Source: Bacteroidota bacterium (GTDB lineage: Bacteria > Bacteroidota > Ignavibacteria > Ignavibacteriales > Melioribacteraceae). From it: a DNA stretch of 64,000 nt. This document shows positions 9,380 to 33,927 of this stretch, one piece after another. Numbering within the stretch: position 1 is the stretch's first letter; each line of letters opens with the position of its first letter. The stretch spans positions 78,069 to 142,068 of the forward strand of contig JAHJUE010000014.1 in the NCBI GenBank assembly GCA_018829205.1. Reading direction: 5' to 3'. The translations under genes were made by a program, and so were the position numbers. The notes under the pieces were generated by a model, which ran no database searches, was not told the DNA's origin, and saw only the letters and a list, made by a program, of their open reading frames with translations.

Positions 9380-11872
9380 ATGAAAAAAATATTATTATCA
9401 TTTCTAATTATTTTCTTTTCAACTGTTCTTTTTGCGCAGGAACAGGTGCTTAATAGTTTCGATCAGGCAGACCCTGATACAAACTATTGGGCGTATTTTG
9501 ATAATCACGGAGGACAGCATTATCAAACAAGCGCAAGTGCAGATTCAGCAAAGGGATGGATTAATATCTCTTATCCAACAGAATATTTTGTAAGCGGGTC
9601 CGGTTCAATGCGTTTGGATTACAGTGCGCAGAATATTGAATCATGGGGCGGTTATACAAAACTTGAACATTGGAACCCGGATTCAAACGGAGTTTATGAC
9701 TGGTCGTTATACGACACTTTGTCAGTTTGGTATTTTAACGTTGTTCCTCAATCAGAATCAGGCAGAATTCACCTAAGAATTAATTTACACGATGTAAGCG
9801 ACGCAACAACCGGCAATAAAACTTATGACGTTACTCAGGTTGAATACTACTATTCATTCCAATATATCCTGGATAACGAACCGGGCTGGAACGAACTTAA
9901 AATTCCACTTGTCAACAACGCCAACTGGGATGGAAACGGTTTTAACTTAACCGGATGGTCTGGCATTGCCGGCAACTCTACTCTTGATCTTGATAAAATA
10001 AAAGGATATTCACTTGAATTTTCTATTAATGGAAGCGGCGACGGTGATTTCGTAACCGGATCTGTAATCCTTGATCAATTAGCTCTAAAAGGAGCTGCTG
10101 AAAATTCTGTTGTATTTTTTAACGGTGCGGCTATTCCTTCTGTAATGGAACAATTTGTTTGGGGCGGAAGTACTGAAATAGTTTTAGGCGCTGGACACAC
10201 TGCATCTTCTCCAAACGCTATTAAATGGGTGCAAAGCGATGCATGGTCGGGTACGGGATTTAATTTCGGTCCGGTTAACCTTTCACTAAGATGGGATCTT
10301 GATTCATTAAAATTTTATATGAAAACAGAAGTTGGTACAGGTAAATTAAGACTTCAATGGGAAGACGGAACTGCGAAAGTCGGCCTTAACTTTGACCCAA
10401 TTGCGGACAACGAATGGCATTTATATTCTTTCCCATTAAACACTATGACTACAGAATTTGACGGAACAACAGGATTTAATAATAAAAATGTTGTGGTATT
10501 CCAAATTTTAACAGAAGGTACAGGTTCAGGCAAGGTCGCTTATTTGGATGACTGGTGGACTGGCAACCCTTCATTTGACGTAGTTGCGCCTGCCGAACCA
10601 GCTTTGGTAACGGCAGCAGGCGGTGATTTCGTTAATTTAGTTACATGGACCGATGTTCCGGGCGAATCTAAAGAAGTATACGATGTTTATTATAGCCTTA
10701 ATGAAATTACAGATTTGACAGCTCCCGGTGTTGAAGTAGTTCAATTCGGAGTTGAAGAAGGTCTCCAAGTTGTTGAACATGTATTAATTGCCCCCGCAAC
10801 TAATCAAGAATTAACTTTCCATTACGCTGTTGTTTGTAAAGACGCTGCCGGCAATGCAAGCGGAATTTCGAAAAGTGATCCAATTACAAATACAGCCAAA
10901 GGAACTACTGTAATTCATCCAACAGCGCCTTCAAATTTTGTTGCTGACGGCGACTTAAGCGAATGGAGCGGTATAACTCCTTTCAGAATGTATTCTTCTG
11001 ACGGAAGCGGTTCAATTGTTACCAACCAGGTAATTGACGGCGATAACGATGCCTCTGCAGATGCTTACGTTGCAATGGACGGAGAATACCTATATGTAGC
11101 TTATAATGTAAATGATGATATCGTATCAAGCGATTCTACAATTGCATCTTATTTAAGAGACGCGGCCGATTTATTTATAGCATTATATGACTGGCATGGT
11201 CCTTCGCATACAAGTTTAAAACGCGGCGAAGAACCTGATTATCAATTCAGATTTAATAAAGAAAGCGCTATTATTGGCACAATCGGTGATTATTTATTAG
11301 CTAGACCAGGTGAAGATTATGCTTGGGTTGAAAAATTCCCTTCAGGATATACTGTTGAAGGTAAATTCTCATTTGCCGAAATTTCAGCTGCGGCAACTCC
11401 CGACGATGCATTATTTTCTCCTAGAGTCGGCAAAAGAATCAAAATAGATTTCGCGATTAATGACGCCGACGCTACTGGTTCAAGAGAAGGTATTTTAACA
11501 TATTCTCCTAAAAATGAAGATAAATCTTATCAGGATGTTTCCCGTTGGGTGTATACATGGATCGGAACTGAAATGACAGTTGATGTAGAAGATACCGAAA
11601 CTCTTCCAAGTTCTTATTCTTTATACCAGAATTATCCTAATCCTTTTAACCCGACTACTAATATAAAATTCAGTATTCCTCAATCGGGAATTGTAACTTT
11701 AAAAATATTTAACGTGCTTGGTCAGGAAGTTGCTGTATTAAATAATAATTTCCTACAGGCTGGTACACATAATTTTAGCTTTGATGCAGGTAATTTGTCA
11801 AGCGGAGTTTATATTTATCAGATTACGGCAAATAATTTTGTAAGTTCAAAGAAAATGTTATTAATTAAATAG
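9380..11872 (+). CDS. Secreted multi-domain carbohydrate-binding protein (FN3-like and CBM9-like modules) with a T9SS C-terminal domain
   Basis: Signal peptide and strong RBS GGGAGGAG. CBM9-like segment DGDLSEWSGITPF...DAYVAMDGEYLYVAYNVNDD...YQFRFNK. CTD NYPNPFNPTTNIKFSIP...GVYIYQI. No catalytic motif recognised. Confidence 0.6.
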   Translation: MKKILLSFLIIFFSTVLFAQEQVLNSFDQADPDTNYWAYFDNHGGQHYQTSASADSAKGWINISYPTEYFVSGSGSMRLDYSAQNIESWGGYTKLEHWNPDSNGVYDWSLYDTLSVWYFNVVPQSESGRIHLRINLHDVSDATTGNKTYDVTQVEYYYSFQYILDNEPGWNELKIPLVNNANWDGNGFNLTGWSGIAGNSTLDLDKIKGYSLEFSINGSGDGDFVTGSVILDQLALKGAAENSVVFFNGAAIPSVMEQFVWGGSTEIVLGAGHTASSPNAIKWVQSDAWSGTGFNFGPVNLSLRWDLDSLKFYMKTEVGTGKLRLQWEDGTAKVGLNFDPIADNEWHLYSFPLNTMTTEFDGTTGFNNKNVVVFQILTEGTGSGKVAYLDDWWTGNPSFDVVAPAEPALVTAAGGDFVNLVTWTDVPGESKEVYDVYYSLNEITDLTAPGVEVVQFGVEEGLQVVEHVLIAPATNQELTFHYAVVCKDAAGNASGISKSDPITNTAKGTTVIHPTAPSNFVADGDLSEWSGITPFRMYSSDGSGSIVTNQVIDGDNDASADAYVAMDGEYLYVAYNVNDDIVSSDSTIASYLRDAADLFIALYDWHGPSHTSLKRGEEPDYQFRFNKESAIIGTIGDYLLARPGEDYAWVEKFPSGYTVEGKFSFAEISAAATPDDALFSPRVGKRIKIDFAINDADATGSREGILTYSPKNEDKSYQDVSRWVYTWIGTEMTVDVEDTETLPSSYSLYQNYPNPFNPTTNIKFSIPQSGIVTLKIFNVLGQEVAVLNNNFLQAGTHNFSFDAGNLSSGVYIYQITANNFVSSKKMLLIK

Positions 11873-11878: not shown

Positions 11879-11906
11879 TTACCGGAATACAACCCGGTAA
11901 TTAATT
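11879..11906 (+). terminator. Weak terminator-like hairpin TTACCGG-N8-CCGGTAA followed by TTAATT
   Basis: 7-bp perfect stem immediately after the stop at 11872. The T tract is poor, so termination is probably only partial. Confidence 0.35.
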
Positions 11907-11967
11907 GTGGTGAAAGGGGCACTTTATTAAATAAGTGCCCCAATTATTAATAAAAAGAAAAAAGAAA

Positions 11968-14637
11968 ATGAATAAAATAAATATTACTTACAGCCGGACA
12001 CTTCTTTTTTATATAATATTTTTTTCTTTGTTATCCATTGCCTATGCCGGGCAGACTGGTAAAATATCCGGAATTATAACTGACAGCGATACAGGCGAGC
12101 CACTTATCGGAGCTAATGTTATTGTAAACGGTACTTACTTCGGCGCGGCAACTGATATAGAAGGATATTATTATATAAACAATATTACACCCGGAAAATA
12201 TACCATTTCCGCTACAGCGGTTGGATATAGGAAAACTATCGTTGAACAAGTAATTGTTAAAATTGATCAGACAACATATATGGATATTGTTCTGCATCCT
12301 GAATCAATTGAACTTGCAGGGGAAGTTGTTGTTGTTGCTGAGAGACCTATGATTACAAAGGATTTAACCTCGACCAAAGCAACCGTTTCATCATCCGATA
12401 TTGAGCTTATGCCGGTTGATAATATCGACCGTGTTATAAATCTTCAGGCTGGAGTCGTAGATGGTCACTTTAGAGGCGGAAGATCAAACGAAGTTTCTTA
12501 TTTGATTGACGGTATTCCTGTTACCGATGTATTCAGCGGCGATAATTCAATTACTGTTGAAAATAGCTCCGTTAGAGAACTGGAAGTTATCTCAGGTACA
12601 TTCAACGCTGAATACGGACAAGCTCTTTCGGGAATCGTTAATATTGTTACAAAGGAAGGTTCAAGCAAATACGAAGGTTTTGTCTCCGGTTATTTCGGTT
12701 CTTATTATTCCAATAATTCAGAGATATTTCAAAACCTTAATAAATTCAGCACCGACGGAATTGAGGATTTTCAATTTAACCTAAGCGGACCTACACAAGT
12801 TTTAAATGGACTTAATTTTTTCGTAACCGGACGTTTCTTAAATGACGACGGATACTATTACGGTAAAAGAGTCTATAATATTTATGACTCTAATCCTTTT
12901 CTACCTTCCGGCGACGGCGAAAATGTTTTAATGAATTCAAGTAAAAAGTATTCGTTTAACGGAAAACTTACATACATTTTGCCTGATATAAAATTCAGTT
13001 ATTCCTTGTTCTGGGACGACAGCAAAAACAAATATTATGATCACGCATATAAATGGACACCCGATGGAATAAGAACTCATTTTAATAATAATCTTATTCA
13101 TAATTTTCAGATTTCGTATTATCCGTCGCAGAACACAATAACTTCCTTAAAATTATCTTCAAATTTATACAGATTTAAAGGCTACCTATTTGAAGATGAA
13201 TATGATTCAAGATATGTTGAGCCGTCACAGGGAGCAGCGCAATCAGATTATACGTTCAGAACAGGCGGTAATCAAAGCGATAGATATCAAAGAAACACTC
13301 TATCATACATAGGTTTATGGAGCCTTGAATCCCAGGTCTCAAAAGAACATAAGGTGAAAATAGGGGTTGAAGGACAATACCACGATATATTCAACCATTG
13401 GAAAAATATCGTGAATCTTAAAGAAGGACAGGTTGACGATAACGGAAATCTGTTATTCGATCTCGGTTATAGAAACGAAGGCACGGATCAGAATCAAAAG
13501 TTTACAAAATCACCTTATCAAATTTCAGCCTACATTCAGGATAAAATGGAATATGATATTATGGTGATTAATGCGGGACTTAGATTTGACTATTTCAGTG
13601 CTAATGATGTTTTACCTGTTGATTTAAGAAATCCGTATCAAGTATCGCCAAATCCGAATTTCCCGGGAGCCGGGCAAACAAGAAGCGTATCTGCTAAACA
13701 GCAGGTAAGTCCGAGGATTGGAGTTTCATTCCCCATAACAGAAAAAGGCGCGATATATTTTTCATACGGACATTTTTTCCAGATACCTAACTTTGAAAAT
13801 CTTTATAGAAACGATTTATATATAATCAGTCAAGGTCAAAGTTTATCTTCTATTGCAGGCAATCCTGATCTTGACGCTCAAAAAACAATCAAGTATGAAC
13901 TTGGACTTCAGCAGGTAATTTTCCCTAATGTATCTCTGGACTTAACTGTTTATTACAGTGATATTAGAAACCTGCTGGGTACTGAAATAATAAATACTTA
14001 TGAAGGATTTAAGTACGCGAGATTTATTAATAGAGATTACGGAAACGTAAAAGGATTTATTCTTACTCTCGAAAAAAGATTTGCTGATTATTTCGGTGTA
14101 AAAATGGATTATACCTATCAAATAGCAGAAGGTAATTCATCCGATCCGCTTTCTGTTTATAACGATAATCAGTCGAACCCGCCCGTTGAATCTGAAAAGA
14201 AAGTTGTTCTTTTAAATTGGGATCAGCGTTCTACATTTAATCTTTCATCCACTATTGGAACCCCGGGAGACTGGACTATAGGATTAATACTGCAGTATGG
14301 TTCTGGTATGCCGTATACAGAGGATATTCAAATTTCCAACGGAGTTAGATTTGAAAACGGCGGAAGAAAACCAACCTATCTTAATGTTGATTTAAAAGCT
14401 GATAAGTTTTTTGATGTTTTCGGCCTGAATGTTCATACATATCTTTTAGTTTATAATCTGTTTGATATTAAAAACGAAGTCGGTGTGTACGGCACTACTG
14501 GTCGTGCAACGTCAGACTTAAATACAAAATTTGCCGGTGATATTGTGGGGTTAAATACTATTGAAGAATACATTAACAATCCGCAAATGTATTCTGCTCC
14601 AAGACAAATAAGATTGGGATTAAGTTTCGGATTTTAA
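11968..14637 (+). CDS. TonB-dependent outer-membrane receptor with an N-terminal carboxypeptidase-regulatory-like domain
   Basis: CarboxypepD_reg-like GKISGIITDSDTGEPLIGANVIVNG...GYYYINNITPGKYTISATAVGY. Plug region DIDRVINLQAGV...RGGRSNEVSYLIDGIPV. C-terminal barrel ending RQIRLGLSFGF. ATG at 11968 preferred, because the track GTG at 11935 lies inside a hairpin. Confidence 0.85.
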   Translation: MNKINITYSRTLLFYIIFFSLLSIAYAGQTGKISGIITDSDTGEPLIGANVIVNGTYFGAATDIEGYYYINNITPGKYTISATAVGYRKTIVEQVIVKIDQTTYMDIVLHPESIELAGEVVVVAERPMITKDLTSTKATVSSSDIELMPVDNIDRVINLQAGVVDGHFRGGRSNEVSYLIDGIPVTDVFSGDNSITVENSSVRELEVISGTFNAEYGQALSGIVNIVTKEGSSKYEGFVSGYFGSYYSNNSEIFQNLNKFSTDGIEDFQFNLSGPTQVLNGLNFFVTGRFLNDDGYYYGKRVYNIYDSNPFLPSGDGENVLMNSSKKYSFNGKLTYILPDIKFSYSLFWDDSKNKYYDHAYKWTPDGIRTHFNNNLIHNFQISYYPSQNTITSLKLSSNLYRFKGYLFEDEYDSRYVEPSQGAAQSDYTFRTGGNQSDRYQRNTLSYIGLWSLESQVSKEHKVKIGVEGQYHDIFNHWKNIVNLKEGQVDDNGNLLFDLGYRNEGTDQNQKFTKSPYQISAYIQDKMEYDIMVINAGLRFDYFSANDVLPVDLRNPYQVSPNPNFPGAGQTRSVSAKQQVSPRIGVSFPITEKGAIYFSYGHFFQIPNFENLYRNDLYIISQGQSLSSIAGNPDLDAQKTIKYELGLQQVIFPNVSLDLTVYYSDIRNLLGTEIINTYEGFKYARFINRDYGNVKGFILTLEKRFADYFGVKMDYTYQIAEGNSSDPLSVYNDNQSNPPVESEKKVVLLNWDQRSTFNLSSTIGTPGDWTIGLILQYGSGMPYTEDIQISNGVRFENGGRKPTYLNVDLKADKFFDVFGLNVHTYLLVYNLFDIKNEVGVYGTTGRATSDLNTKFAGDIVGLNTIEEYINNPQMYSAPRQIRLGLSFGF

Positions 14638-14685
14638 CCAACCTGCCTTATGCGGGTGAAATGCTATTGCAATACGGAGGAAGTA

Positions 14686-17600
14686 ATGTTTCGTAAATTA
14701 ATTTGTTTTTCATTTTTTATAGTGTCTTTTAATACTTTGTTTGCCCAGGCAACAGAACAGACATTAAAATATAGAAGTGAGGATTACGGAAACGTTCAAT
14801 ACCGCAGAGAAGGTACTATGGACGGAAACCTTGTAAGAACACTTTTTTATAATAACGGCGAAGTTGCTCAATGGCCTTTTTCGCCTTCGGGTGAGTGGCC
14901 TAAAGGAAGTGGGCATAATTATCTTGACGGGGTTTGTGTTCTAATCGCGTCCGAAATTGAAACTAATGGGGGAATTGTTCATCCTCTTGAAACTTCATAT
15001 AGAGAATGGATGGATAAAGATCCCGTAACAGGAGAAGTTTGGGGCTTGGAACCGGTACCCGGATATACATACCCTTCTTCTGAAAAACCTGCAATTAACA
15101 ATGATCCGACTTCATGGCCCGAAGCCTGGCCTAGCGCGCTTCCTAATATAACATCGGAATGGAACGGTTTCTGGTACGGCTATTTCGGTAGAGGAGTTAA
15201 TAACGCTGATTTTGAAACTTTCTATGTAATGGATGATTCAAAAGACGGTGAGTTTTCAAGGCCGCCTTATAATTATTTCCCAATTGAATCCGATCATAAC
15301 CGTAAAGGATTAGGTCTTAGGGTTGAAGTTAGAGGTTTTCAATGGTCGCATGTTTTAGCCGAAGATATAATTTTTTGGCATTATGATATAGTAAATATTT
15401 CCGATAGAAATTATGAGAAAACTTATTTCGGTTTCTATACTGATACCGGTGTTGGCGGTTCCGGAGATAATGGCGACGATAACGCTTCATTTGATACTAA
15501 AATAGATTTAGCCTATGCTTTTGACGACGACGGATTCGGAGCGCCTGGAAGATTTGTTACAGGTTATTACGGCTATGCTTATCTTGAAAGTCCCGGCGAC
15601 GCTACAAACGGAATTGACGACGATGAAGATGGTATGATTGACGAACGCAGAGACGACGGTATTGATAACGACAATGACTGGTTAACATATCTGGATCTAA
15701 ACGGTAACGGCGAATGGGATGCTGACGAAAATGAACCTTTAAATAACGATGTGGGAGAAGACGGTGTCGGTCCGTTTGATCCTCAATATATTGGACCGGA
15801 CAAAGGTGAAGGTGACGGACTTCCAACCGACGGTGAACCAAATTTTGATAAAACTGATAAAGATGAATCAGATCAAATTGGTTTGACAAGTTTATCAATT
15901 TACAGGCTTGGAGACGGCGGCACAGGCGGCGGATGGCCTAAAGATGATGAGCAAATGTGGCTTAGAATGCAGAAGGCTAATTATGATACCTCTCTGCAAA
16001 GAGCAAATATAAGTATGGTTTTTGCATCCGGTATTTTCCCGTTGAGCCAGAACTTAAGAGAAAGATTTTCTATGGCCCTGGTTTTCGGCAATAATTTTGA
16101 TGATATGGTTTTTAATAAAGAGACCGTACAGCAGATTTACAATGCCAATTATAATTTTTCAAAACCTCCTCTTAAACCGATAGTTAAAGCAGTTCCCGGC
16201 GACGGAAAAGTATTTATTTATTGGGATAATTCAGCTGAAGAATCAAGAGATCCTTTCCTGGGATTTGAAAATAATGATCCGACTCAAGGGTATAAAAAAG
16301 ATTTTGAAGGGTATTTGATTTATAGAAGCACCGAACCGGAATTTAACGATATCAAAGTTATTACCGATTCAAAAGGGGAAGCAAAATTCTGGAAACCTAT
16401 TGCTCAATTCGATAAAATTGACGGCATTTACGGTCCCGATCCCGTTGGAATAAACGGCGCTAGTTTCTGGAGAGGCAATGAAACCGGTCTGCAGCATTCA
16501 TATGTTGATGAAGATGTAGTAAACGGACAGAAATATTATTACGCCGTAGTTTCTTATGATCAGGGCGATCCTTCGTTTGGAACTAAAGGTTTGGTCCCTT
16601 CGGAATGTACAAAAATTATTTCTGAGGATTTTTCGGGAGTATTAAAATTTGTTGATTATAACTGTGCGGTTGTTACTCCTAACGCGCCTGCGGCCGGTTA
16701 TATTCCGCCTCAGGTTAACGGAAACTTCGAAAAAGTTGAAAACGGTATTGGTACCGGTAATTTAATTGTAGGATTACTTAGCGCGGATGAAATAAAAGAT
16801 AACGCTGTTTATAAAATTCTTTTTGAGTCGGCTGGTAATGAACAAAAATATAATACAACAAAATATAAAATTATTAGAACCGCAGGATCAGCTACAGATA
16901 CTTTAATGTCAGTTAATTCTTCAGAAATTGGGGCAAACAAATTTAGTACTCCGTTTGACGGTATGACAATTTCTATTAATAATGATACAACTGTAGCTGT
17001 AATTGATTCTGAAACAGGTTGGTTAATAGGAAGCAGTAATTTAACAATGAATGTATTTGCCGATCAAAGTTCTCCCGCAAAAAATGTTAAATGGCCGGCC
17101 GATTATGAAATTCATTTTTATGCTGAACAAAAAGCAATAACTCCTTTCTTTAAAATTCCGATTAATTTCGAAGTTATAAATGTTACTTCAGGAAAAACTG
17201 TTGAAGCCGAGGTATTTGATAATAACGGCGATAAAACTTTATCAATTGGGGATGAAATTTCTATAATTGAAAGAGTGGGAACCGACTTTAGACTAACCTG
17301 GAGAATTACATATTACCAGCCAGCAGGAATGGGCTTTCAGCCAAGATACCCTGAAGCCGGCGATGTATTTTTGGTTAAAATTAGTAAGCAGTTTGCTACT
17401 GGCGATTATTTTACTTTTACAACAAATTCGTCAAAAATTGACGAAGAAATTGCTAAAGGTGCTTTAGACAAAATTTCTGTTGTTCCTAATCCTTATATAG
17501 CCACAAACAAATGGGAAAAACGAAATTTAAATCAAACCGGCAGAGGTGAAAGACGAATAGATTTCATCAATCTTCCATCTGATTGTACAATTAGGATATA

Positions 17601-17778
17601 TACTGTTACCGGCTCGTTGATAAAAACATTATATAAAAACACAACGCCAACAGACGGAACCGTTACATGGAACCTAGTTTCGGATGACGGAATGGATGTT
17701 GCGTTCGGTTTATATATATATCATGTTGATGCGCCCGGCATTGGTACACAAATAGGAAAATTTGCAATAATCAAATAA
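14686..17778 (+). CDS. Large secreted protein of unknown function (about 1030 aa) with an Asp-rich calcium-binding-like segment and a divergent C-terminal beta-sandwich/sorting-like domain
   Basis: Signal peptide FRKLICFSFFIVSFNTLFAQA after RBS GGAGGA. Acidic repeats DDDEDGMIDERRDDGIDNDNDW...DLNGNGEWDADENE...DVGEDGVGPFD...DGLPTDGEPNFD. C-terminus VVPNPYIATNKWE...IRIYTVTGSLIKTLY...FGLYIYHV resembles but differs from the QNYPNPFN CTDs. No catalytic motif recognised. Confidence 0.6.
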   Translation: MFRKLICFSFFIVSFNTLFAQATEQTLKYRSEDYGNVQYRREGTMDGNLVRTLFYNNGEVAQWPFSPSGEWPKGSGHNYLDGVCVLIASEIETNGGIVHPLETSYREWMDKDPVTGEVWGLEPVPGYTYPSSEKPAINNDPTSWPEAWPSALPNITSEWNGFWYGYFGRGVNNADFETFYVMDDSKDGEFSRPPYNYFPIESDHNRKGLGLRVEVRGFQWSHVLAEDIIFWHYDIVNISDRNYEKTYFGFYTDTGVGGSGDNGDDNASFDTKIDLAYAFDDDGFGAPGRFVTGYYGYAYLESPGDATNGIDDDEDGMIDERRDDGIDNDNDWLTYLDLNGNGEWDADENEPLNNDVGEDGVGPFDPQYIGPDKGEGDGLPTDGEPNFDKTDKDESDQIGLTSLSIYRLGDGGTGGGWPKDDEQMWLRMQKANYDTSLQRANISMVFASGIFPLSQNLRERFSMALVFGNNFDDMVFNKETVQQIYNANYNFSKPPLKPIVKAVPGDGKVFIYWDNSAEESRDPFLGFENNDPTQGYKKDFEGYLIYRSTEPEFNDIKVITDSKGEAKFWKPIAQFDKIDGIYGPDPVGINGASFWRGNETGLQHSYVDEDVVNGQKYYYAVVSYDQGDPSFGTKGLVPSECTKIISEDFSGVLKFVDYNCAVVTPNAPAAGYIPPQVNGNFEKVENGIGTGNLIVGLLSADEIKDNAVYKILFESAGNEQKYNTTKYKIIRTAGSATDTLMSVNSSEIGANKFSTPFDGMTISINNDTTVAVIDSETGWLIGSSNLTMNVFADQSSPAKNVKWPADYEIHFYAEQKAITPFFKIPINFEVINVTSGKTVEAEVFDNNGDKTLSIGDEISIIERVGTDFRLTWRITYYQPAGMGFQPRYPEAGDVFLVKISKQFATGDYFTFTTNSSKIDEEIAKGALDKISVVPNPYIATNKWEKRNLNQTGRGERRIDFINLPSDCTIRIYTVTGSLIKTLYKNTTPTDGTVTWNLVSDDGMDVAFGLYIYHVDAPGIGTQIGKFAIIK

Positions 17779-17794
17779 GAAATTTGGTAATAAT

Positions 17795-18826
17795 ATGAAA
17801 AAGATTCTCTTTCAAATATGTATAATAATTCTTGCTGTTTCCGGATTTAATTTTGGACAAAATTTTGTTTCGGATGTCTCTAAAAGGGGAACAACCGCCG
17901 CGGCGTTTTTAACAATTAGTCAAGGCGCTCGTGCTTCTTCGATGGGAAGCGCGTTTGTCGCCGTTGCTGATGATCCAAGCGCTATTTTTTGGAATCCAGC
18001 CGGTTTGGCGAGACTTCAAAACAGCGGTTTTATAATTGATCATACCGAGTGGGTCGCCGATCTTAAATACAATTTTTTAGCAGGCAGTTTAAATCTTGGA
18101 GAATACGGCGCCATTGGTTTGAGCTTTATTTCTTCGGATTACGGCGATATGAAGGTAACCACAATTGACGAACCTAACGGAACGGGCGAAATATTTAATG
18201 TTACCGACGCAATGTTCAGTATTGCATGGGCAATAAATCTTACAGATAATTTCTCAATTGGTCTTAACCCAAAAGTTATTTACCAGGGTATCTGGAATAT
18301 GTCCGATTACGCATTGGCAATTGATCTGGGAGTACTTTATAACACTCCGTTTAAAGGTTTTACATTAGGAATGGCAATTTCAAATTTCGGATCTAAGATG
18401 GGCTTGGACGGCACAACCGCTGTTGTTCTATATGATCCTGATCAGGCAACTACCGGCAACAACGGACGTATACCGGCAAACCTTCAAACTGATTTGTGGG
18501 ATTTACCTCTTAACTTTAAGGTTGGTGTATCGTATAAACCTGATTTAGGAGATGTTCATCACCTTGTGCTTGATGTTGACGCCGCTCATCCAAACAATGA
18601 TTATGAAAGTATAAATCTTGGCGGAGAATATTCATTCAAAAATATTTTCTATTTAAGAGGCGGGTATAAATCTCTGTTTCTTAATGATTCCGAAGAATCA
18701 TTTACATTCGGCGCCGGTATTAAACAGCACCTTTTGGGGAACGTAAATATTGTTTTCGATTACGCGTATTCGGATTTCGGCAGGCTAAGCAATGTACAGA
18801 AATTTTCAGTTGGTATTAATTTCTAA
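17795..18826 (+). CDS. PorV/PorQ-like outer-membrane beta-barrel protein
   Basis: Signal peptide. N-terminal signature GARASSMGSAFVAVADDPSAIFWNPAGLA, typical of the PorV/PorQ (UPF0164-like) family. Alternating beta-strand pattern ending in F. Confidence 0.6.
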   Translation: MKKILFQICIIILAVSGFNFGQNFVSDVSKRGTTAAAFLTISQGARASSMGSAFVAVADDPSAIFWNPAGLARLQNSGFIIDHTEWVADLKYNFLAGSLNLGEYGAIGLSFISSDYGDMKVTTIDEPNGTGEIFNVTDAMFSIAWAINLTDNFSIGLNPKVIYQGIWNMSDYALAIDLGVLYNTPFKGFTLGMAISNFGSKMGLDGTTAVVLYDPDQATTGNNGRIPANLQTDLWDLPLNFKVGVSYKPDLGDVHHLVLDVDAAHPNNDYESINLGGEYSFKNIFYLRGGYKSLFLNDSEESFTFGAGIKQHLLGNVNIVFDYAYSDFGRLSNVQKFSVGINF

Positions 18827-18864: not shown

Positions 18865-20670
18865 ATGAAGTTTTTAACGCTGTTAATTGCAGCTGCGGCA
18901 ATAACTATATCTTTTACTTACGGTAAAAATTATAAAGGCGCCGAATATAGAACTAAAGAGAATTATACCTACGGCAGGTTTGAAGTCAGATTCAAACCTG
19001 CTAATAGGGAAGGCGTTGTATCGTCATTTTTTACCTATCATGAAATTTCTAGTACTGCGGAATGGAACGAAATTGATATTGAAGCGATTGGACGGTATAC
19101 AAACCTGGTGCAGTTTAATACAATTACTCCCGGTCAGCAGAATCATGTAAGAAACAACTACGTTGCTTTTAATCCTTTTGTTGATTTTCATGATTATGCC
19201 TTTGAATGGACTCCGGATTATATCGCTTGGTTTATTGATAACGAAGAAGTTTACAGGCAGACAGGCGATTTTGTAAAATCAGTTGTTCATGAACAAAAAA
19301 TAATGATGAATATATGGAATCCGGTCTATACTGGCTGGGTTGGATATTGGAATGATGACTTCCTTCCGGCAAGATCTTATTACGATTGGGTTAGCTATTC
19401 TTCCTACACTCCTGGCAGCGGTAATACGGGAACATCCGGCAACTTTTCATTTCAATGGAAAGATGATTTTGATTCATGGGATAAAAACAGATGGGAAAAA
19501 GCAACTCATACATTCGGCGGGAATCAGGCCGATTTTATACAGGAAAACGCTGTGCTGCAGGACGGTTATTTAATATTATGCTTAACGGATGAAACCAATA
19601 TTGGATTATCCGACAACAGAAAACCAAATATTCTGTGGGCACGAGAGAATTTTGACAATACAGTCACCGTAATGTTTTCAGAAGAAATCAATAAACCTAT
19701 CGCTGAAACTGTATCAAATTATACAATTCCCGGTGTTAAAGTAATAAGCGCAAACTTAAACGAAGATTCGAAAAGCGTTTTACTGCATACGCAGAATTAT
19801 GACCCCGATATTACATACAATATTATAATTCAAAACATAACCGACGATGAATCTATTCCAAATAAAATGGCTTTAAAAGCTATTTCAATTATTCAGATTA
19901 ACGAACTTTTTTTACCTGTAAAAATTAATGCCGGCGGTTCTAGTTTAGGAGAATTTAATTCCGACATCGAATGGAGCAGCTCAACCGAATACGGATATTC
20001 TAACGGAAGCGGCAAAATGTGGCCGCAGAATATTATTATCGGAGGAACTTCGGATGGAAATATTTACAAATATGAATTAAATGGTTTGGCCGCCTATAAA
20101 ATACGTGTTAAAAACGGTACATATAATATTAAACTTATGTTTGCCGAAAATGAATTTAACGAATCCGGCAGAAGAATTTTTGATGTCGTTGCCGAAGGCA
20201 GATTGTTGAAAGATAATTTAGATATTTATTCGGAGGTTGGAAAAAACCAGGCCTTTGATATTGAAGCTTCTATTGAAGTTAACGACGAGGTAATAGATTT
20301 ATATTTCCCTGAAGAGACCGGAAACGCTATTATTAACGGTATTATTGTTGACCATGGTACTACGGATATAAATATTAATAAATCATTGCCCGATGATTTT
20401 GAATTATTGCAGAACTATCCAAATCCGTTTAATAACACCACTATCATTAAGTTCTATCTTAATTCCGAACAGAATCTTAAACTGAAAATTTATGATTCAC
20501 TCGGAAGAAATATTGTTACGGAAAATTTAGGATCACTGTCAGTCGGTGAACATAAATATGAATGGAACGGAAACGGCGCTAATGAATCATCCTTAAGTTC
20601 CGGAGTATATTTCTACTCGCTGCAAGGGGAGAAAAATTTCTCGGTTAAAAAACTAATGCTGTTAAAATAA
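18865..20670 (+). CDS. GH16 beta-glucanase (lichenase/laminarinase type) with a malectin-like module and a T9SS C-terminal domain
   Basis: GH16 catalytic motif EWNEIDIEAIG (ExDxE). The malectin-like segment is centred on GRRIFDVVAEGRLLKDNLDIYSEVGKNQAFDIE. CTD NYPNPFNNTTIIKFYL...GVYFYSL. Confidence 0.8.
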   Translation: MKFLTLLIAAAAITISFTYGKNYKGAEYRTKENYTYGRFEVRFKPANREGVVSSFFTYHEISSTAEWNEIDIEAIGRYTNLVQFNTITPGQQNHVRNNYVAFNPFVDFHDYAFEWTPDYIAWFIDNEEVYRQTGDFVKSVVHEQKIMMNIWNPVYTGWVGYWNDDFLPARSYYDWVSYSSYTPGSGNTGTSGNFSFQWKDDFDSWDKNRWEKATHTFGGNQADFIQENAVLQDGYLILCLTDETNIGLSDNRKPNILWARENFDNTVTVMFSEEINKPIAETVSNYTIPGVKVISANLNEDSKSVLLHTQNYDPDITYNIIIQNITDDESIPNKMALKAISIIQINELFLPVKINAGGSSLGEFNSDIEWSSSTEYGYSNGSGKMWPQNIIIGGTSDGNIYKYELNGLAAYKIRVKNGTYNIKLMFAENEFNESGRRIFDVVAEGRLLKDNLDIYSEVGKNQAFDIEASIEVNDEVIDLYFPEETGNAIINGIIVDHGTTDININKSLPDDFELLQNYPNPFNNTTIIKFYLNSEQNLKLKIYDSLGRNIVTENLGSLSVGEHKYEWNGNGANESSLSSGVYFYSLQGEKNFSVKKLMLLK

Positions 20671-20714
20671 ATATGTTAATGAAAACAAAAATTACCGCAA
20701 TATTTGAGGTTTAT

Positions 20715-22556
20715 ATGAAAAAATATTCTGTTACAATCCTAACACTTATATTATTGACTTTAGTTATCTGTGCGCCGCTAAACAATAATCCAAAAGAAAT
20801 ATTTGTTGATGATATGCTGTCTAAAATGACATTAGAGGAAAAAATAGGTCAAATGACACAGGTGGATTATTCCGCGTTTGAAGATTTTAATGATATTGAA
20901 AAATACGCTATTGGTTCCGTGCTCTGGGGCGGAGGATCCGAAATAAGCGATATAACTCCGCAAGGCTGGGCCAACGTTAGCGATCAGCTGCAGACATACG
21001 CCGGCAAAACAAGATTAAAAATTCCTTTGCTGTTTGGAATTGACGCTGTGCACGGACATAATAATGTTGACGGAGCTGTAATATTTCCACATAATATCGG
21101 ATTGGGTTGCACACAAAACCCCGAGCTTATTGAGAAATCAGCAAGAGCTACAGCAGAAGAAATTGCAGGAACAGGTATTCATTGGACATTTGCTCCTTGC
21201 GTAGCAGTCGCAAGAAATGAAAGATGGGGAAGAACATACGAAAGCTTCAGCGAAGATCCCGAACTTGTCGCCAAACTTGGCGCAGCCGCGGTTAAAGGCT
21301 TTGAAAATGGAAACCTGTCTGCCAAAGATGCTGTACTTTCATGCACAAAACATTATATGGGAGACGGCGGCACTACCAACGGTAAAGATCAAGGTCATAC
21401 CGAAGTTGATGAAGAAACATTAAGAAAAATTCATCTGCCCGGTTATATTCAAGCAATTAAAGAAAATACAGGTTCTATTATGGCTTCTTATAATACTTGG
21501 GACGGAATTAAAATGCATGGAAATAAATATCTGCTAACGGATGTATTAAAAAATGAATTAGGATTCAAAGGATTTATAGTTTCAGACTGGGCCGCAATTG
21601 ATCAGCTGCCGGGCGATTATAAAAGCGATATTGAGATTTGTATTAATGCAGGTATGGATATGATTATGATACCTAACGGACCAAGAGAACAGGGAGTAGT
21701 AGAAGAAACCGATAACGGGCCTATAACAAAAAATACTTATTTCGATTTTATTAAGTATACAAAAGAACTCGTTGAAGAAAATAAAATCCCGATGTCAAGA
21801 ATTGATGACGCGGTAACTCGTATTCTAAACGTTAAATATGATTTGGACTTGTTTAATAAATTAACCCATGATAAAGAACTGTTATCAAAAATCGGTTCAA
21901 AAGAACATAGAGATATCGCGAAAGAATGTGTAAGAGAATCATTAGTATTGTTAAAAAATGAAAATAACACATTGCCGGTTTCAAAATCAGCAAAAAGAAT
22001 TCATTTAGCGGGAACTGGTGCCGATAATATTGGAATGCAGTGCGGTGGATGGACTATCTCATGGCAGGGAGAAGTTGGTGATGTTATAAGCGGCGGAACA
22101 ACCATTCTAGATGCATTTAAAAATTCTGCCCCCGAAGGTACGGAAATAACTTATTCGGAAGATGCATCTAACGCGCATGGAGCTGATTATTGTATTGTTG
22201 TTGTCGGTGAAAAACCATATGCAGAAATGTTCGGAGACAGGGAAAATTTAGCTTTAAGCGAAGACGATATTAATGTTATTAAAATTGCGAAAGATAGCGG
22301 CGCTAAAGTAATTGTTGTACTGCTGTCAGGAAGACCATTAATAATAAACTCCGCTTTGGAATTGGCCGATGCATTTGTTGCCGCATGGCTCCCGGGTTCC
22401 GAAGGTCAGGGAGTGGCTGACGTTTTATTCGGTGACTATAATTTTAAAGGGAGATTATCCCATAGCTGGCCGAAAGATATGTCCCAGATTCCAGTAAATA
22501 AAGATGATGAAAATTATGATCCCCTATTTAAAATTAATTATGGTCTTTGTTATTAA
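20715..22556 (+). CDS. GH3 beta-glucosidase / exo-beta-1,3(4)-glucanase (no CBM or CTD, probably periplasmic)
   Basis: [23 protein letters not shown], nucleophile region [17 protein letters not shown] at 20715 (MKKYSVTILTL signal peptide) preferred over 20673. Confidence 0.9.
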   Translation: MKKYSVTILTLILLTLVICAPLNNNPKEIFVDDMLSKMTLEEKIGQMTQVDYSAFEDFNDIEKYAIGSVLWGGGSEISDITPQGWANVSDQLQTYAGKTRLKIPLLFGIDAVHGHNNVDGAVIFPHNIGLGCTQNPELIEKSARATAEEIAGTGIHWTFAPCVAVARNERWGRTYESFSEDPELVAKLGAAAVKGFENGNLSAKDAVLSCTKHYMGDGGTTNGKDQGHTEVDEETLRKIHLPGYIQAIKENTGSIMASYNTWDGIKMHGNKYLLTDVLKNELGFKGFIVSDWAAIDQLPGDYKSDIEICINAGMDMIMIPNGPREQGVVEETDNGPITKNTYFDFIKYTKELVEENKIPMSRIDDAVTRILNVKYDLDLFNKLTHDKELLSKIGSKEHRDIAKECVRESLVLLKNENNTLPVSKSAKRIHLAGTGADNIGMQCGGWTISWQGEVGDVISGGTTILDAFKNSAPEGTEITYSEDASNAHGADYCIVVVGEKPYAEMFGDRENLALSEDDINVIKIAKDSGAKVIVVLLSGRPLIINSALELADAFVAAWLPGSEGQGVADVLFGDYNFKGRLSHSWPKDMSQIPVNKDDENYDPLFKINYGLCY

Positions 22557-22618
22557 AAGTTATAAATAATTATAGAATTTGACTTAAGGTTTATTGCATT
22601 ACTCTAATTGGAGAATTA

Positions 22619-24871: not shown

Positions 24872-24873
24872 AT

Positions 24874-25722
24874 ATGAAAACGATAAAAAATATAATTATG
24901 CTGAATCTATTCGTAGCTTCTTGCACATTTTGCGGATGTTCAGGTGATGATAATCCCTCCGATTCATCCTCTGTTACCGAAATTCCTGGTTATAATTTAA
25001 TATGGAATGATGAGTTCGAAGGAACTTCTATAAATGATAAGAAATGGGAACATGAAGTAAATGCAAATGGTGGAGGTAATAATGAATTGCAGTATTATAC
25101 AGCAAGATCTGAAAACTCGTATGTAAAAGATGGTTCATTATTTATTGTAGCGTTAAAAGAAAATTATTCAGGCAATGAAGGCAAAAGAGATTATACTTCA
25201 GCAAGAATGAGGACATTAAATAAAGGCGATTGGAAATACGGACGAATTGAAGTCAGAGCAAAACTTCCGTTTGGACAAGGATTATGGCCGGCAATTTGGA
25301 TGCTTCCAACTGACTGGGTTTACGGCGGATGGGCTGCAAGCGGCGAAATTGACATAATGGAATTGCTTGGACATGAACCTGAGCGTGTATACGGAACCTT
25401 GCATTACGGCGGAACATTTCCTAATAATACGCATTCAGGTTCTTCGTATAAACTACCGACGGGAAATTTCTCTAATGATTTTCATGTTTTCCGTCTTGAT
25501 TGGGAAGAAGGCGAGTTTAGATGGTATGTAGACGATATAATTTATCTTACACAGAAAAATTGGTTTTCAGGAAGTAACCCATACCCGGCTCCTTTTGATC
25601 AAAAATTTCATATGCTGCTTAATGTTGCCGTAGGTGGCAACTGGCCCGGCAGTCCTAATCTTTCGACTTCCTTTCCTCAAATAATGGAAGTTGATTTTGT
25701 GCGGGTTTATCAGAAAAAATAA
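24874..25722 (+). CDS. GH16 laminarinase (endo-beta-1,3-glucanase), probable lipoprotein
   Basis: GH16 catalytic motif SGEIDIMELLG (ExDxxE), WPAIWMLP. N-terminal lipobox-like LFVASCTFCGCSGDD. Confidence 0.85.
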   Translation: MKTIKNIIMLNLFVASCTFCGCSGDDNPSDSSSVTEIPGYNLIWNDEFEGTSINDKKWEHEVNANGGGNNELQYYTARSENSYVKDGSLFIVALKENYSGNEGKRDYTSARMRTLNKGDWKYGRIEVRAKLPFGQGLWPAIWMLPTDWVYGGWAASGEIDIMELLGHEPERVYGTLHYGGTFPNNTHSGSSYKLPTGNFSNDFHVFRLDWEEGEFRWYVDDIIYLTQKNWFSGSNPYPAPFDQKFHMLLNVAVGGNWPGSPNLSTSFPQIMEVDFVRVYQKK

Positions 25723-33920: not shown

Positions 33921-33927
33921 AACAATA

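What the first reader, a model, noticed from the sequence alone, without database searches (positions are those of the whole stretch)
11968..18826. TonB-dependent receptor, 1030-aa unknown protein and PorV-like barrel: a candidate non-SusCD glycan capture module
At the core of the locus, where a Bacteroidota PUL would have susC-susD, there are three tightly spaced genes with gaps of 48 and 16 nt. They encode a CarboxypepD_reg-type TonB-dependent receptor, a very large secreted protein with no recognisable catalytic motif, and a barrel with the PorV/PorQ N-terminal signature (SMGSAFVAVADDPSAIFWNPAGLA). PorV is known as the T9SS shuttle that binds C-terminal sorting domains, and every secreted enzyme of this locus carries such a domain. 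One hypothesis is that the locus-encoded PorV-like barrel tethers CTD-bearing enzymes or binding proteins next to the receptor, with the 1030-aa protein acting as the SusD-equivalent lid or glycan binder. As far as I know, this triad has not been characterised functionally.
Basis: inference. Interest (0 to 1): 0.7.

Follow-up and report, generated by a model that had tools for sequence, protein, structure and literature searches.

The report
TonB receptor, big surface protein, PorV-like anchor
Three adjacent genes in a beta-glucan locus (an outer-membrane importer, a 1030-residue unnamed surface protein and a PorV-like barrel) recur together across several bacterial phyla that mostly lack the classic SusC/SusD system, and probably form an undescribed nutrient-capture machine.

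Summary
Window 11968-18826 holds three + strand genes with gaps of 48 and 16 nt. They encode a CarboxypepD_reg/Plug/barrel TonB-dependent receptor, a 1030-aa secreted protein ("BIG") with no Pfam or NCBIfam hit, and a PorV/PorQ-family barrel (NF033709, 219.6 bits against a cut-off of 90).

The trio is far from chance. In 80 related loci, a receptor homologue lies directly upstream of BIG in 68/70 and a PorV-like gene directly downstream in 72/75. The phyla include Ignavibacteriota, Calditrichota, Neomarinimicrobiota, Rhodothermales and KSB1. The BIG family has 4776 clusters at 50% identity, all unnamed, and often several paralogues per genome.

- BIG ends in a divergent T9SS sorting domain (hhalign probability 96.9%).
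- BIG's N-terminal half folds like the non-catalytic beta-supersandwich of GH94-type glycan phosphorylases.
- A non-catalytic CBM9 or CBM4_9 protein with an ordinary sorting domain sits directly upstream of the receptor in 42/51 loci.

Some trios sit in loci without detected glycan-degrading enzymes (PhoD, GlpD).

My best reading is a SusCD-like import module. Its surface partner would be exported by the T9SS and held by the PorV-like barrel, as PorQ holds PorZ. The complex itself and any lid role are untested. I found no paper describing the trio.

The parts
9380..11872 (+). Non-catalytic surface protein with CBM9 and an ordinary type-A T9SS sorting domain (830 aa). It is a recurrent fourth component and the likely primary glycan binder.
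   Evidence: CBM9_1 E 1.1e-14 and Por_Secre_tail E 1.3e-11; TIGR04183 48 bits. A same-strand protein with a type-A sorting domain lies directly upstream of the receptor in 42/51 related loci. Those examined carry CBM9 or CBM4_9 and no catalytic domain.
11879..11941 (+). Two stem-loops (11879-11900 and 11916-11941) between the CBM9 gene and the receptor gene. They look like a terminator or attenuator.
   Evidence: Terminator-like scan; RNA fold -29.2 kcal/mol. GC-rich hairpins, often followed by a T run, occupy the same place in most related loci. Function is inferred.
11968..14637 (+). TonB-dependent receptor (889 aa) with signal peptide, CarboxypepD_reg-like N-terminal domain, a candidate TonB box GEVVVVAE, plug and barrel. 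It is not a SusC/RagA member.
   Evidence: Pfam hits. TIGR04056 scores 59 bits against a cut-off of 368, and only on the N-terminal domain. PDB sequence hits are limited to plug and N-terminal domain fragments. The TonB box is read from the sequence and is an inference.
14686..17778 (+). BIG, a 1030-aa secreted all-beta protein of an unnamed family with a type I signal peptide and no lipobox.
   Evidence: No Pfam, NCBIfam or PDB sequence hit. 100% match to the hypothetical protein KJ571_09885. The family has 4776 clusters at 50% identity with E<=1e-3. AlphaFold2 model: pLDDT 82.2, pTM 0.73. A lipobox-like motif occurs in only 10/241 homologues.
14749..16185 (+). BIG residues 22-500: a beta-supersandwich domain carrying a conserved Asp-rich insert (residues 301-420, nt 15586-15945) that probably binds Ca2+.
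   Evidence: Separate AlphaFold2 model: pLDDT 88.4, pTM 0.88. [quoted passage not shown] E 3e-5 to 1e-2, probability about 1.0 for the best hits (0.54-1.00 over the 50), TM about 0.35. Which domain is matched, their N-terminal supersandwich, is my inference; no per-residue alignment was shown. Invariant residues include D311, D313, D315, D327, D355, E384, D391, E394 and D396. Ca2+ binding is inferred.
16186..17460 (+). BIG residues 501-925: a conserved Fn3-like domain (501-660), then the most variable beta-rich region (661-925), a candidate specificity region.
   Evidence: Secondary structure of the model. Mean identity to the window protein is 49% for 501-660 and 27% for 661-925. The specificity role is inferred.
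17461..17775 (+). BIG residues 926-1030: a divergent T9SS type-A-like C-terminal domain with a conserved insert of about 15 residues (939-953, ...WE......GRGER) after the PNPY motif.
   Evidence: hhalign of 119 BIG C-termini against 140 ordinary sorting domains from the same loci: probability 96.9%, E 2e-10, 67 columns. A sorting-domain HMM built without BIG hits the C-terminus of 78/83 BIG ORFs. It is among the best-conserved parts of BIG, 53% identity. The insert has pLDDT below 50. The curated models PF18962 and TIGR04183 do not reach threshold.
17795..18826 (+). PorV/PorQ-family outer-membrane barrel (343 aa), a subfamily distinct from PorV, PorQ and PorV2. Proposed anchor for BIG's C-terminal domain.
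   Evidence: NF033709 219.6 bits against 90. PorQ 95.7 against 220, PorV 77.5 against 250, PorV2 75.5 against 325. 71/71 third genes of related loci hit NF033709 at E<=1e-20. The anchoring role is inferred from the PorQ:PorZ and PorV:PorU precedents (PMC5562754).
1229..9341 (+). Upstream part of the beta-glucan locus: GH5+CBM6 with sorting domain (1229-3262), GH2 with sorting domain (3315-5672), GDSL esterase with TPR (5720-7603) and a sodium:solute symporter (7740-9341). A sigma-54 activator lies at 77-1129.
   Evidence: Pfam. The same gene content is found in Ignavibacterium sp. AP026678.
18865..31086 (+). Downstream part of the locus: GH16+malectin with sorting domain, GH3, MFS transporter, ROK kinase, GH16, GH3+PA14, and GH3+CBM6 with sorting domain.
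   Evidence: Pfam.

Best explanation
The three genes encode a conserved outer-membrane nutrient-import module that does the job of SusC/SusD but is built differently. The steps below are marked as shown or inferred.

1. **Degradation outside the cell.** Enzymes carrying a T9SS sorting domain (GH16-malectin, GH5-CBM6, GH2, GH3-CBM6) and the CBM9 binder are exported by the T9SS and act on beta-glucan at the cell surface. The domain content is shown; the location is inferred.
2. **Import.** The TonB-dependent receptor imports the oligosaccharides. The family assignment is shown; the substrate is inferred from the neighbouring genes.
3. **Export of BIG.** BIG is a 1030-aa protein and not a lipoprotein. 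It crosses the inner membrane by its signal peptide and the outer membrane by the T9SS through its divergent C-terminal domain. The homology of that domain is shown; export is inferred.
4. **Anchoring of BIG.** The locus-encoded PorV/PorQ-family barrel binds this C-terminal domain without its removal and so holds BIG in the outer membrane next to the receptor. This copies how PorQ holds PorZ and PorV holds PorU. This step is inferred.
5. **Division of labour within BIG.** The conserved N-terminal supersandwich and its Asp-rich insert would engage the receptor or a feature common to all substrates. The variable region 661-925 would tune substrate specificity. This step is inferred.
6. **Downstream processing.** Periplasmic GH3 and GH16 enzymes, the SSF and MFS transporters and the ROK kinase complete uptake (inferred from domain content).

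Paralogous modules serve other substrates in the same genomes.
For: **Conserved order and adjacency.** A receptor homologue is directly upstream of BIG in 68/70 loci and a PorV-like gene directly downstream in 72/75, across several phyla. Bit scores decline in parallel, Spearman 0.89.

**Many paralogues, as with SusC/SusD.**
- At least 4 in one KSB1 MAG and 2 in each of two other MAGs.
- Three receptor-BIG pairs on one contig.
- Two modules on one Neomarinimicrobiota contig.
- An Ignavibacterium sp. beta-1,2-glucan locus (GH94, GH144, GH35) carries a 37%-identical paralogue, and a MAG labelled I. album has a 36%-identical BIG. I. album also has a 67%-identical BIG, and the fully syntenic beta-glucan locus is in Ignavibacterium sp. 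AP026678.

**Neighbouring genes fit nutrient uptake.** LacI regulators, sugar ABC transporters, GH144, GH94, GH130, GH35 and CBM proteins with sorting domains.

**BIG looks like a T9SS client.**
- Its C-terminus is homologous to T9SS sorting domains.
- That C-terminal domain and the Asp-rich insert are the most conserved parts of BIG.
- It has a conserved, low-confidence insert that suits a binding epitope.
- BIG has a type I signal peptide and no lipobox, so it needs an anchor other than a lipid.

**The third gene is PorV/PorQ family in 71/71 loci** but never an equivalog of PorV, PorQ or PorV2.

**Precedent.** PorU:PorV and PorZ:PorQ sub-complexes anchor surface proteins that carry a sorting domain (PMC5562754). 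PorV binds substrate sorting domains through its loops (PMC10994853).

**Fold.** The N-terminal half of BIG matches glycan phosphorylases and related glycan-active enzymes, which I take to be their non-catalytic supersandwich domain.
Against: - There is no direct evidence of any physical contact.
- Distance-matrix correlations do not link the C-terminal domain to the PorV-like gene more than other BIG regions. Partial correlations are 0.22-0.34 for all regions.
- Curated sorting-domain models (PF18962, TIGR04183) do not detect BIG's C-terminus.
- In L082, two of three receptor-BIG pairs have no PorV-like gene of their own. In L073 and L046 the order differs.
- Ordinary proteins with sorting domains are present in 49/51 long loci, so the PorV-like barrel could serve them instead.
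- The supersandwich match is moderate (TM about 0.35, E 1e-5 to 1e-2).
- The best full-length structural match, to PorZ, has TM of only 0.09-0.12.
- The residues that are invariant across paralogues argue against the N-terminal domain being the substrate-specific binder.
Confidence: 0.5

Rival explanations
1. The PorV-like barrel is a local tether for the ordinary sorting domains of the locus's enzymes and CBM proteins. It gathers them around the receptor, while BIG, anchored in some other way, is the SusD-like lid or glycan binder.
For: 49/51 loci of at least 15 kb have at least one ordinary neighbour with a sorting domain. A CBM protein with a sorting domain lies directly upstream of the receptor in 42/51 loci. 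PorV is known to hold many different sorting-domain substrates (PMC5562754).
Against: BIG has a sorting domain of its own, which is more conserved than those of the neighbours and is next to the PorV-like gene. Modules exist with no enzyme nearby, in L082 and L085. A housekeeping PorV would already serve ordinary type-A sorting domains. BIG has no lipid anchor, so its own attachment would remain unexplained.
Confidence: 0.2
2. The PorV-like barrel is only a dedicated export shuttle for BIG's atypical C-terminal domain. After export that domain is cleaved and BIG is attached to LPS or released. No stable receptor-BIG-barrel complex exists.
For: PorV's canonical role is as a shuttle (PMC5562754; PMC10994853). 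BIG's C-terminal domain is divergent and may not fit the housekeeping PorV. Some receptor-BIG pairs lack their own PorV-like gene.
Against: The tight three-gene linkage with the receptor in 68/70 and 72/75 loci is hard to explain if only secretion were involved. The third gene scores slightly closer to PorQ, an anchor, than to PorV: 95.7 against 77.5 bits.
Confidence: 0.15
3. BIG is an undescribed enzyme, for example a glycan-active enzyme built on the supersandwich, rather than a binding or lid protein.
For: The fold matches domains of GH94, GH149, GH161 and GH116 enzymes. Invariant acidic and aromatic residues (E177, R216, W220, E301, W144, W148, W163) could form an active site.
Against: The matched supersandwich domain is not the catalytic domain in those enzymes (established knowledge), and BIG's model is all-beta with no helical barrel region. 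The same invariant residues occur next to loci for different glycans and next to loci without detected glycan-degrading enzymes. There is no Pfam or NCBIfam hit. BIG is strictly paired with a transporter, as binding partners are.
Confidence: 0.07
4. The three genes are co-inherited but act independently. The barrel would be a FadL-type diffusion channel and BIG an adhesin or S-layer-like surface protein unrelated to import.
For: The third gene has weak FadL/Toluene_X similarity. Foldseek full-length hits include S-layer and multi-Ig proteins.
Against: The order, spacing and paralogy are conserved across phyla and substrates. The full-length match is to the PorV/PorQ family rather than to FadL.
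Confidence: 0.05

Closest known systems
SusC/SusD (RagA/RagB) transporter-lipoprotein pairs of Bacteroidota polysaccharide utilization loci
   Same: - A TonB-dependent transporter with a CarboxypepD_reg-like N-terminal domain is encoded directly before a large surface partner.
- There are many paralogues per genome, each inside a substrate-specific locus with enzymes, regulators and inner-membrane transporters.
- Tandem pairs occur.
   Different: - The receptor fails the SusC model (59 bits against a cut-off of 368).
- The partner is a 1030-aa all-beta protein with no SusD domain. It is not a lipoprotein and has a T9SS-type C-terminal domain.
- A third gene, for a PorV/PorQ-family barrel, is almost always present.
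- The distribution is mainly outside Bacteroidia: Ignavibacteriota, Calditrichota, Neomarinimicrobiota, KSB1 and Rhodothermales.
T9SS attachment sub-complexes PorQ:PorZ and PorV:PorU of Porphyromonas gingivalis
   Same: A PorV-family barrel is paired with a large surface protein that carries a sorting domain, and the barrel anchors that protein at the cell surface (PMC5562754). The best full-length structural match of BIG is PorZ, though weakly.
   Different: - The barrel here is neither a PorQ nor a PorV equivalog.
- BIG is not homologous to the PorZ or PorU bodies by sequence.
- The pair is encoded with a TonB-dependent receptor inside nutrient loci and in many paralogous copies, not once per genome as secretion machinery.
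Surface glycan-binding proteins (SusE/F-like SGBPs) and T9SS-anchored CBM proteins
   Same: The upstream CBM9 or CBM4_9 protein with a sorting domain is non-catalytic, carries CBMs and is encoded next to the transporter, as SGBPs are.
   Different: It is anchored by the T9SS sorting-domain route rather than by a lipid, and it has no sequence relationship to SusE or SusF.
N-terminal beta-supersandwich domain of GH94, GH149 and GH161 glycoside phosphorylases
   Same: The predicted fold of BIG residues 22-500 matches these enzymes; I take the matched part to be their N-terminal supersandwich.
   Different: There is no sequence-level match to PF06165, no helical-barrel catalytic domain follows, and BIG carries a unique Asp-rich insert.

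Membership tests
TonB-dependent receptor (gene 1) | Plug domain followed by a 22-strand barrel domain | tested here: met
   PF07715 25.3 bits (cut-off 23.9) and PF00593 93.1 bits (cut-off 27).
TonB-dependent receptor (gene 1) | TonB box N-terminal to the plug | tested here: inconclusive
   GEVVVVAE lies between the CarboxypepD_reg domain and the plug, read from the translation. No model was available to score it.
SusC/RagA subfamily (gene 1) | Full-length match to TIGR04056 above its cut-off | tested here: not met
   59.1 bits against 368.25, and only residues 43-169 (the N-terminal domain) match.
SusC/SusD pair (canonical PUL) | A SusD/RagB-family lipoprotein gene adjacent to the receptor | tested here: not met
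   The adjacent gene has no Pfam hit at all and no lipobox, and its model is all-beta. No SusD family was found among the 40 window ORFs scanned.
PorV/PorQ family (gene 3) | Full-length match to NF033709 above its cut-off | tested here: met
   219.6 bits against 90, residues 33-343 on profile positions 1-326. 71/71 third genes of related loci match at E<=1e-20.
PorV proper (T9SS shuttle, NF033710) | Equivalog score above its cut-off | tested here: not met
   77.5 bits against 250.
PorQ proper (NF033711) and PorV2 (NF052325) | Equivalog score above its cut-off | tested here: not met
   PorQ 95.7 bits against 220; PorV2 75.5 bits against 325.
PorV/PorQ family (gene 3) | Binds the C-terminal domain of a T9SS client | not testable with these tools
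   This needs complex prediction or biochemistry. The precedent is PMC5562754.
T9SS type-A sorting domain (BIG C-terminus) | Match to the curated models PF18962 or TIGR04183 | tested here: not met
   No hit at E<=0.01 (Pfam) or E<=0.1 (NCBIfam).
T9SS type-A sorting domain (BIG C-terminus) | Homology to bona fide sorting domains, at the extreme C-terminus, with the shared motifs PNP(F/Y), IxF, IY..G, GxYxY and K..(I/L)(I/L)K | tested here: met
   hhalign probability 96.9%, E 2e-10, 67 columns. An independent sorting-domain HMM hits the C-terminus of 78/83 BIG ORFs. The motifs align.
T9SS cargo (BIG) | Actual export by a T9SS, and the fate of the C-terminal domain | not testable with these tools
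   No T9SS component genes lie in the window. The rest of the genome was not available.
GH94-type glycoside phosphorylase (BIG) | Supersandwich domain followed by a helical-barrel catalytic domain | tested here: not met
   Only a supersandwich-like fold is present. The rest of BIG is beta-rich. There is no PF06165 or PF17167 hit.

The most novel reading that the evidence does not exclude
Non-Bacteroidia members of the FCB group (Ignavibacteriota, Calditrichota, Neomarinimicrobiota, KSB1, Rhodothermales) use, as their main high-molecular-weight nutrient importer, a previously unrecognised complex. In it a TonB-dependent transporter is capped or served by a large protein exported by the T9SS. 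That protein's uncleaved, specialised C-terminal domain is permanently held by a dedicated PorV-family barrel. This would join the T9SS and TonB-dependent import into one machine and give PorV paralogues a second, non-secretory function.
Probability: 0.35. Interest if true: 0.85.

Novelty: new variant of a known kind. Interest (0 to 1): 0.72.

Why it matters
SusC/SusD explains glycan capture in Bacteroidia. How the related but SusD-poor phyla capture polymers is largely unknown, although Ignavibacteriota, Calditrichota, Marinimicrobia and KSB1 are abundant in sediments, hot springs, groundwater and the dark ocean.

This module is very common: 4776 clusters at 50% identity, and at least 593 loci in one-genome-per-species data. 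It is multi-copy and sits inside substrate-specific loci, yet every member is annotated 'hypothetical protein' and no Pfam family covers the central protein.

Recognising it would have four uses:
- It gives a marker for predicting PUL-like loci outside Bacteroidota.
- It assigns a probable role to a large class of PorV/PorQ paralogues.
- It suggests that the T9SS supplies structural parts of import machines.
- It offers cultured test systems: the Ignavibacterium album beta-1,2-glucan locus, Melioribacter roseus, and possibly Rhodothermus marinus Rmar_1070-1072.

Tried and rejected
- **Sequence annotation of BIG.** Pfam, NCBIfam and PDB sequence searches found nothing.
- **Full-length Foldseek search.** The top hit, PorZ, and the many Ig/Fn3 chain proteins all have TM of 0.1 or less. 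I treat this only as a hint.
- **Distance-matrix (mirror-tree) test** of BIG regions against the PorV-like protein and the receptor. All regions correlate at 0.7-0.85 and the partial correlations are similar, so the test says nothing about who contacts whom.
- **Sigma-54 promoter consensus in the window.** It found 15 matches against 18 expected by chance, none at a useful place, even though a sigma-54 activator heads the locus.
- **Confirming by sequence that Rhodothermus marinus Rmar_1070-1072 is this trio.** The 120 best relatives of a Rhodothermales BIG carried no R. marinus name. The link rests only on the published table: a TonB-dependent receptor, then a hypothetical protein with a Por sorting domain, then another hypothetical protein (PMC6987092).
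- **Literature.** Ten searches found no description of the trio. [quoted passage not shown]
- **Rejected: the third gene is an unrelated porin**.
- **Rejected: the receptor is a SusC**.
- **Rejected: BIG is a lipoprotein like SusD**.
- **Rejected: the module is exclusive to glycan loci**.

Full report
**1. The observation**

The window is a run of + strand genes. The three genes are at 11968-14637, 14686-17778 and 17795-18826.

The mechanical ORFs begin a little earlier, at GTG 11935 and ATG 14650. The internal ATGs are the better starts. They give proper signal peptides, and the 1030-aa product is identical to the NCBI MAG protein KJ571_09885.

- **Gene 1** has CarbopepD_reg_2, Plug and TonB-dependent barrel domains.
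- **Gene 2**, called BIG here, has no Pfam or NCBIfam hit and no sequence relative in the PDB.
- **Gene 3** matches the PorV/PorQ family model NF033709 over its full length, 219.6 bits against a cut-off of 90. It stays far below the equivalog cut-offs for PorV, PorQ and PorV2. Its only PDB relative is F. johnsoniae PorV.

The quoted motif is at residues 49-72 of gene 3. Five proteins of the locus carry a T9SS sorting domain, but three glycosidases with signal sequences do not.

**2. The locus**

From 77 to 31086 the genes are, in order:
- a sigma-54 activator
- GH5+CBM6 with a sorting domain
- GH2 with a sorting domain
- GDSL esterase with TPR
- a sodium:solute symporter
- a CBM9 protein with a sorting domain
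- the trio
- GH16+malectin with a sorting domain
- GH3
- an MFS transporter
- a ROK kinase
- GH16
- GH3+PA14
- GH3+CBM6 with a sorting domain

This is a beta-glucan (laminarin or mixed-linkage type) utilisation locus. Most of the same genes flank a 67%-identical BIG in Ignavibacterium sp. AP026678. No SusD-family gene and no T9SS core gene occur among the 40 window ORFs scanned.

**3. Is the trio conserved?**

BIG belongs to a very large unnamed family.
- More than 5295 clusters at 90% identity match it, none with a Pfam domain.
- 4776 representatives at 50% identity match at E<=1e-3, and 658 at E<=1e-30. The full-length members among the best hits are roughly 900-1600 aa.

A scan of one genome per species found at least 593 loci. 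The best 80 come from these groups:
- Ignavibacteriota
- Calditrichota
- Neomarinimicrobiota
- Rhodothermales and Balneola
- KSB1
- Stahlbacteria
- Eisenbacteria

I searched all ORFs of those loci with the three window proteins. A receptor homologue lies directly upstream of BIG in 68 of 70 loci that have room for it. A PorV-like gene lies directly downstream in 72 of 75. The three bit scores fall together (Spearman 0.89), which is expected for co-inherited genes.

All 71 third genes tested hit NF033709 at E<=1e-20, and none approaches an equivalog score. Co-occurrence holds, and the third gene is not an unrelated porin.

The exceptions are informative:
- L082 has receptor-BIG, receptor-BIG-PorV-like and receptor-BIG in tandem.
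- L046 and L073 have rearranged orders.

So receptor-BIG is the core pair, and one barrel may serve several pairs.

**4. Paralogy and substrates**

Several genomes hold more than one module:
- at least four in a KSB1 MAG, and two in each of two other MAGs
- two on one Neomarinimicrobiota contig (L057 and L087)
- in Ignavibacterium, both a beta-glucan-type BIG (67% identity to the window protein) and paralogues of only 36-37% identity, one of them in a MAG labelled I. album (L071, L081)

I scanned 135 neighbours of 34 distant modules against Pfam:

| Pfam family or group | Neighbours matching (of 135) |
|---|---|
| Por_Secre_tail | 28 |
| LacI-type regulator (periplasmic-binding fold) | 13 |
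| SBP_bac_1 (sugar ABC binding protein) | 10 |
| BPD_transp_1 (ABC permease) | 18 |
| PF10091 'Glycoamylase' (GH144) | 10 |
| GH94 | 7 |
| GH130 | 2 |
| GH35 | 1 |
| CBM9 | 6 |
| CBM4_9 | 3 |

L071 reads LacI, GH94, CBM9 protein with a sorting domain, receptor, BIG, PorV-like, GH144, F5/8 type C protein, GH35, GH144 with a sorting domain. This gene content matches the published I. album beta-1,2-glucan cluster. Its authors could say only that a TonB-dependent transporter 'might' import the products (PMC8861115).

Another subfamily, in L086 and L087, sits beside GlpD-like dehydrogenases, an MFS transporter and, in L087, PhoD with a sorting domain and an RpiR regulator. No glycan-degrading enzyme was detected there. 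The module is therefore a general nutrient importer whose paralogues track different substrates, as SusC/SusD pairs do.

**5. What BIG is**

BIG has a type I signal peptide and no lipobox. Only 10 of 241 homologues have a lipobox-like motif. AlphaFold2 with 84 homologues gives an all-beta, multi-domain model with pLDDT 82.2 and pTM 0.73.

*(a) C-terminal domain.* The last 105 residues or so align with the ordinary sorting domains of the same locus, motif by motif: PNPY, IDF, IRIYTVTG, FGLYIYH and GKFAIIK. There is an insert of about 15 residues after PNPY.
- A sorting-domain HMM built from about 140 non-BIG sorting domains hits the extreme C-terminus of 78 of 83 BIG ORFs.
- Profile-profile comparison gives 96.9% probability and E 2e-10.
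- Curated models miss it, so it is a divergent member.
- It is among the best-conserved parts of the protein, at 53% identity against 27% for residues 661-925.
- The insert carries invariant residues E944, G952 and G954, yet it is modelled with pLDDT below 50. That pattern suits a loop that becomes ordered on a partner.

*(b) N-terminal half.* Residues 22-500, modelled alone (pLDDT 88.4, pTM 0.88), match only glycan-active enzymes in the PDB. Most of the 50 best hits are GH94, GH149 or GH161 phosphorylases. [quoted passage not shown] Probability is about 1.0 for the best hits (0.54-1.00 over the 50), E 3e-5 to 1e-2, and TM about 0.35. I infer that the matched part is their N-terminal supersandwich; no per-residue alignment was shown. 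No helical catalytic barrel follows in BIG.

*(c) Asp-rich insert.* Residues 301-420 carry invariant Asp and Glu residues. They look like Ca2+-binding loops, which is an inference.

*(d) Middle and variable regions.* An Fn3-like domain (501-660) is followed by the variable beta-rich region 661-925.

The full-length Foldseek search puts PorZ first and PorU at rank 33, but with TM of 0.12 or less, so I count it only as a hint.

**6. A fourth recurrent part**

The gene directly upstream of the receptor is, in 42 of 51 loci, a same-strand protein with an ordinary type-A sorting domain. Those examined are non-catalytic and carry CBM9 or CBM4_9. In the window this is 9380-11872.

Between it and the receptor gene there is a strong hairpin in most loci, often followed by a T run. 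In the window the hairpins are at 11879-11900 and 11916-11941.

**7. Mechanism**

*Shown:* the family assignments, the gene order and its conservation, the paralogy, the substrate-linked context, the sorting-domain homology, the absence of a lipobox, and the fold similarity.

*Inferred:*
- BIG is exported by the T9SS.
- Its specialised C-terminal domain is held, uncleaved, by the PorV-like barrel. The precedent is P. gingivalis, where PorU and PorZ are anchored at the cell surface by PorV and PorQ respectively, and truncating half of PorZ's C-terminal domain abolishes its surface presentation (PMC5562754).
- PorV loops contact the sorting domains of substrates (PMC10994853).
- BIG works with the receptor in capture or gating.

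The invariant N-terminal residues across paralogues for different substrates argue that this domain meets a constant partner, such as the receptor or the outer membrane, rather than the variable ligand. The variable region 661-925 and the CBM protein are better candidates for specificity.

I could not run a complex prediction. My distance-matrix test was uninformative.

**8. Comparison with what is known**

Functionally the module resembles SusC/SusD. It is not a member of that system:
- the receptor fails TIGR04056
- BIG has no SusD domain
- BIG is all-beta and is not lipidated

In its anchoring logic it resembles PorQ:PorZ, but the barrel is not a PorQ equivalog and the pair is multi-copy and linked to nutrient loci.

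The Rhodothermus marinus xylan locus lists Rmar_1070 (TonB-dependent receptor), Rmar_1071 (hypothetical protein with signal peptide and Por sorting domain) and Rmar_1072 (hypothetical protein) (PMC6987092). This looks like the same trio, but I could not verify it by sequence.

Ten literature searches found no functional or comparative description of the trio.

**9. Verdict**

The finding is a new variant of a known kind: a TonB-dependent transporter with a surface partner, where the partner appears to come through the T9SS and to be held by a PorV-family barrel. It is widespread, unnamed and testable in cultured organisms. I score interest at 0.72.

I give 0.5 to the specific anchoring-and-import model. 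I am much more confident (about 0.85, my judgement) that the three genes form one functional outer-membrane uptake module.

Noticed in passing
window 9380-11872: A non-catalytic CBM9 protein with an ordinary T9SS sorting domain lies directly upstream of the receptor. A same-strand protein with a type-A sorting domain (CBM9 or CBM4_9 where examined) holds this position in 42/51 related loci, making the module effectively four genes.
   Followed up: yes
window 11879-11900 and 11916-11941: Two stem-loops lie in the 95-nt gap before the receptor gene. GC-rich hairpins, often followed by a T run, occupy the same place in most related loci. They may act as a terminator or attenuator that sets the ratio of binder to transporter.
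   Followed up: partly
L086 14530-22641; L087 4178-23309: One subfamily of the trio, in Rhodothermales and Neomarinimicrobiota, sits next to GlpD/DAO dehydrogenases and an MFS transporter, plus PhoD phosphodiesterases with sorting domains and an RpiR regulator in L087. No glycan-degrading enzymes were detected. This hints at uptake of an organophosphate or phosphoglycerol polymer.
   Followed up: partly
L082 1-21026: A tandem array of receptor-BIG, receptor-BIG-PorV-like and receptor-BIG lies on one contig. One PorV-like barrel may therefore serve several pairs.
   Followed up: partly
L028 784-2436; L087 14495-16237 (9 of 135 neighbours): Genes for PPIC-type peptidyl-prolyl isomerases (Rotamase_2, about 550-580 aa) recur beside the trio. 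The T9SS translocon SprA also carries a PPIase subunit of unknown function (PMC10994853).
   Followed up: no
BIG residues 939-953 (window 17500-17544): An insert inside the C-terminal domain has invariant E944, G952 and G954 but pLDDT below 50. It is a candidate partner-binding loop specific to this family.
   Followed up: partly
window 47484-49916: A second receptor-like gene (CarbopepD_reg plus OMP_b-brl_3, 810 aa) has no BIG or PorV-like neighbour.
   Followed up: no
window 33438-44160: A cluster of MarR regulator, SDR, two KAS III-like enzymes, SSF transporter, AMP-ligase, alpha/beta hydrolase and thiolase includes two ORFs with no Pfam hit (39891-40385 and 40464-41999). It may be a fatty-acid or polyketide-like pathway.
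   Followed up: no
window 77-1129 and 50857-52659 (- strand): Two sigma-54 activators are present, the first heading the glucan locus. No sigma-54 promoter consensus was found above chance in the window.
   Followed up: partly
Rhodothermus marinus Rmar_1070-1072 (literature, PMC6987092): The published xylan locus lists a TonB-dependent receptor, a hypothetical protein with a Por sorting domain, and another hypothetical protein in this order. It is probably the same trio in a cultured, genetically tractable organism, but this was not verified by sequence.
   Followed up: partly
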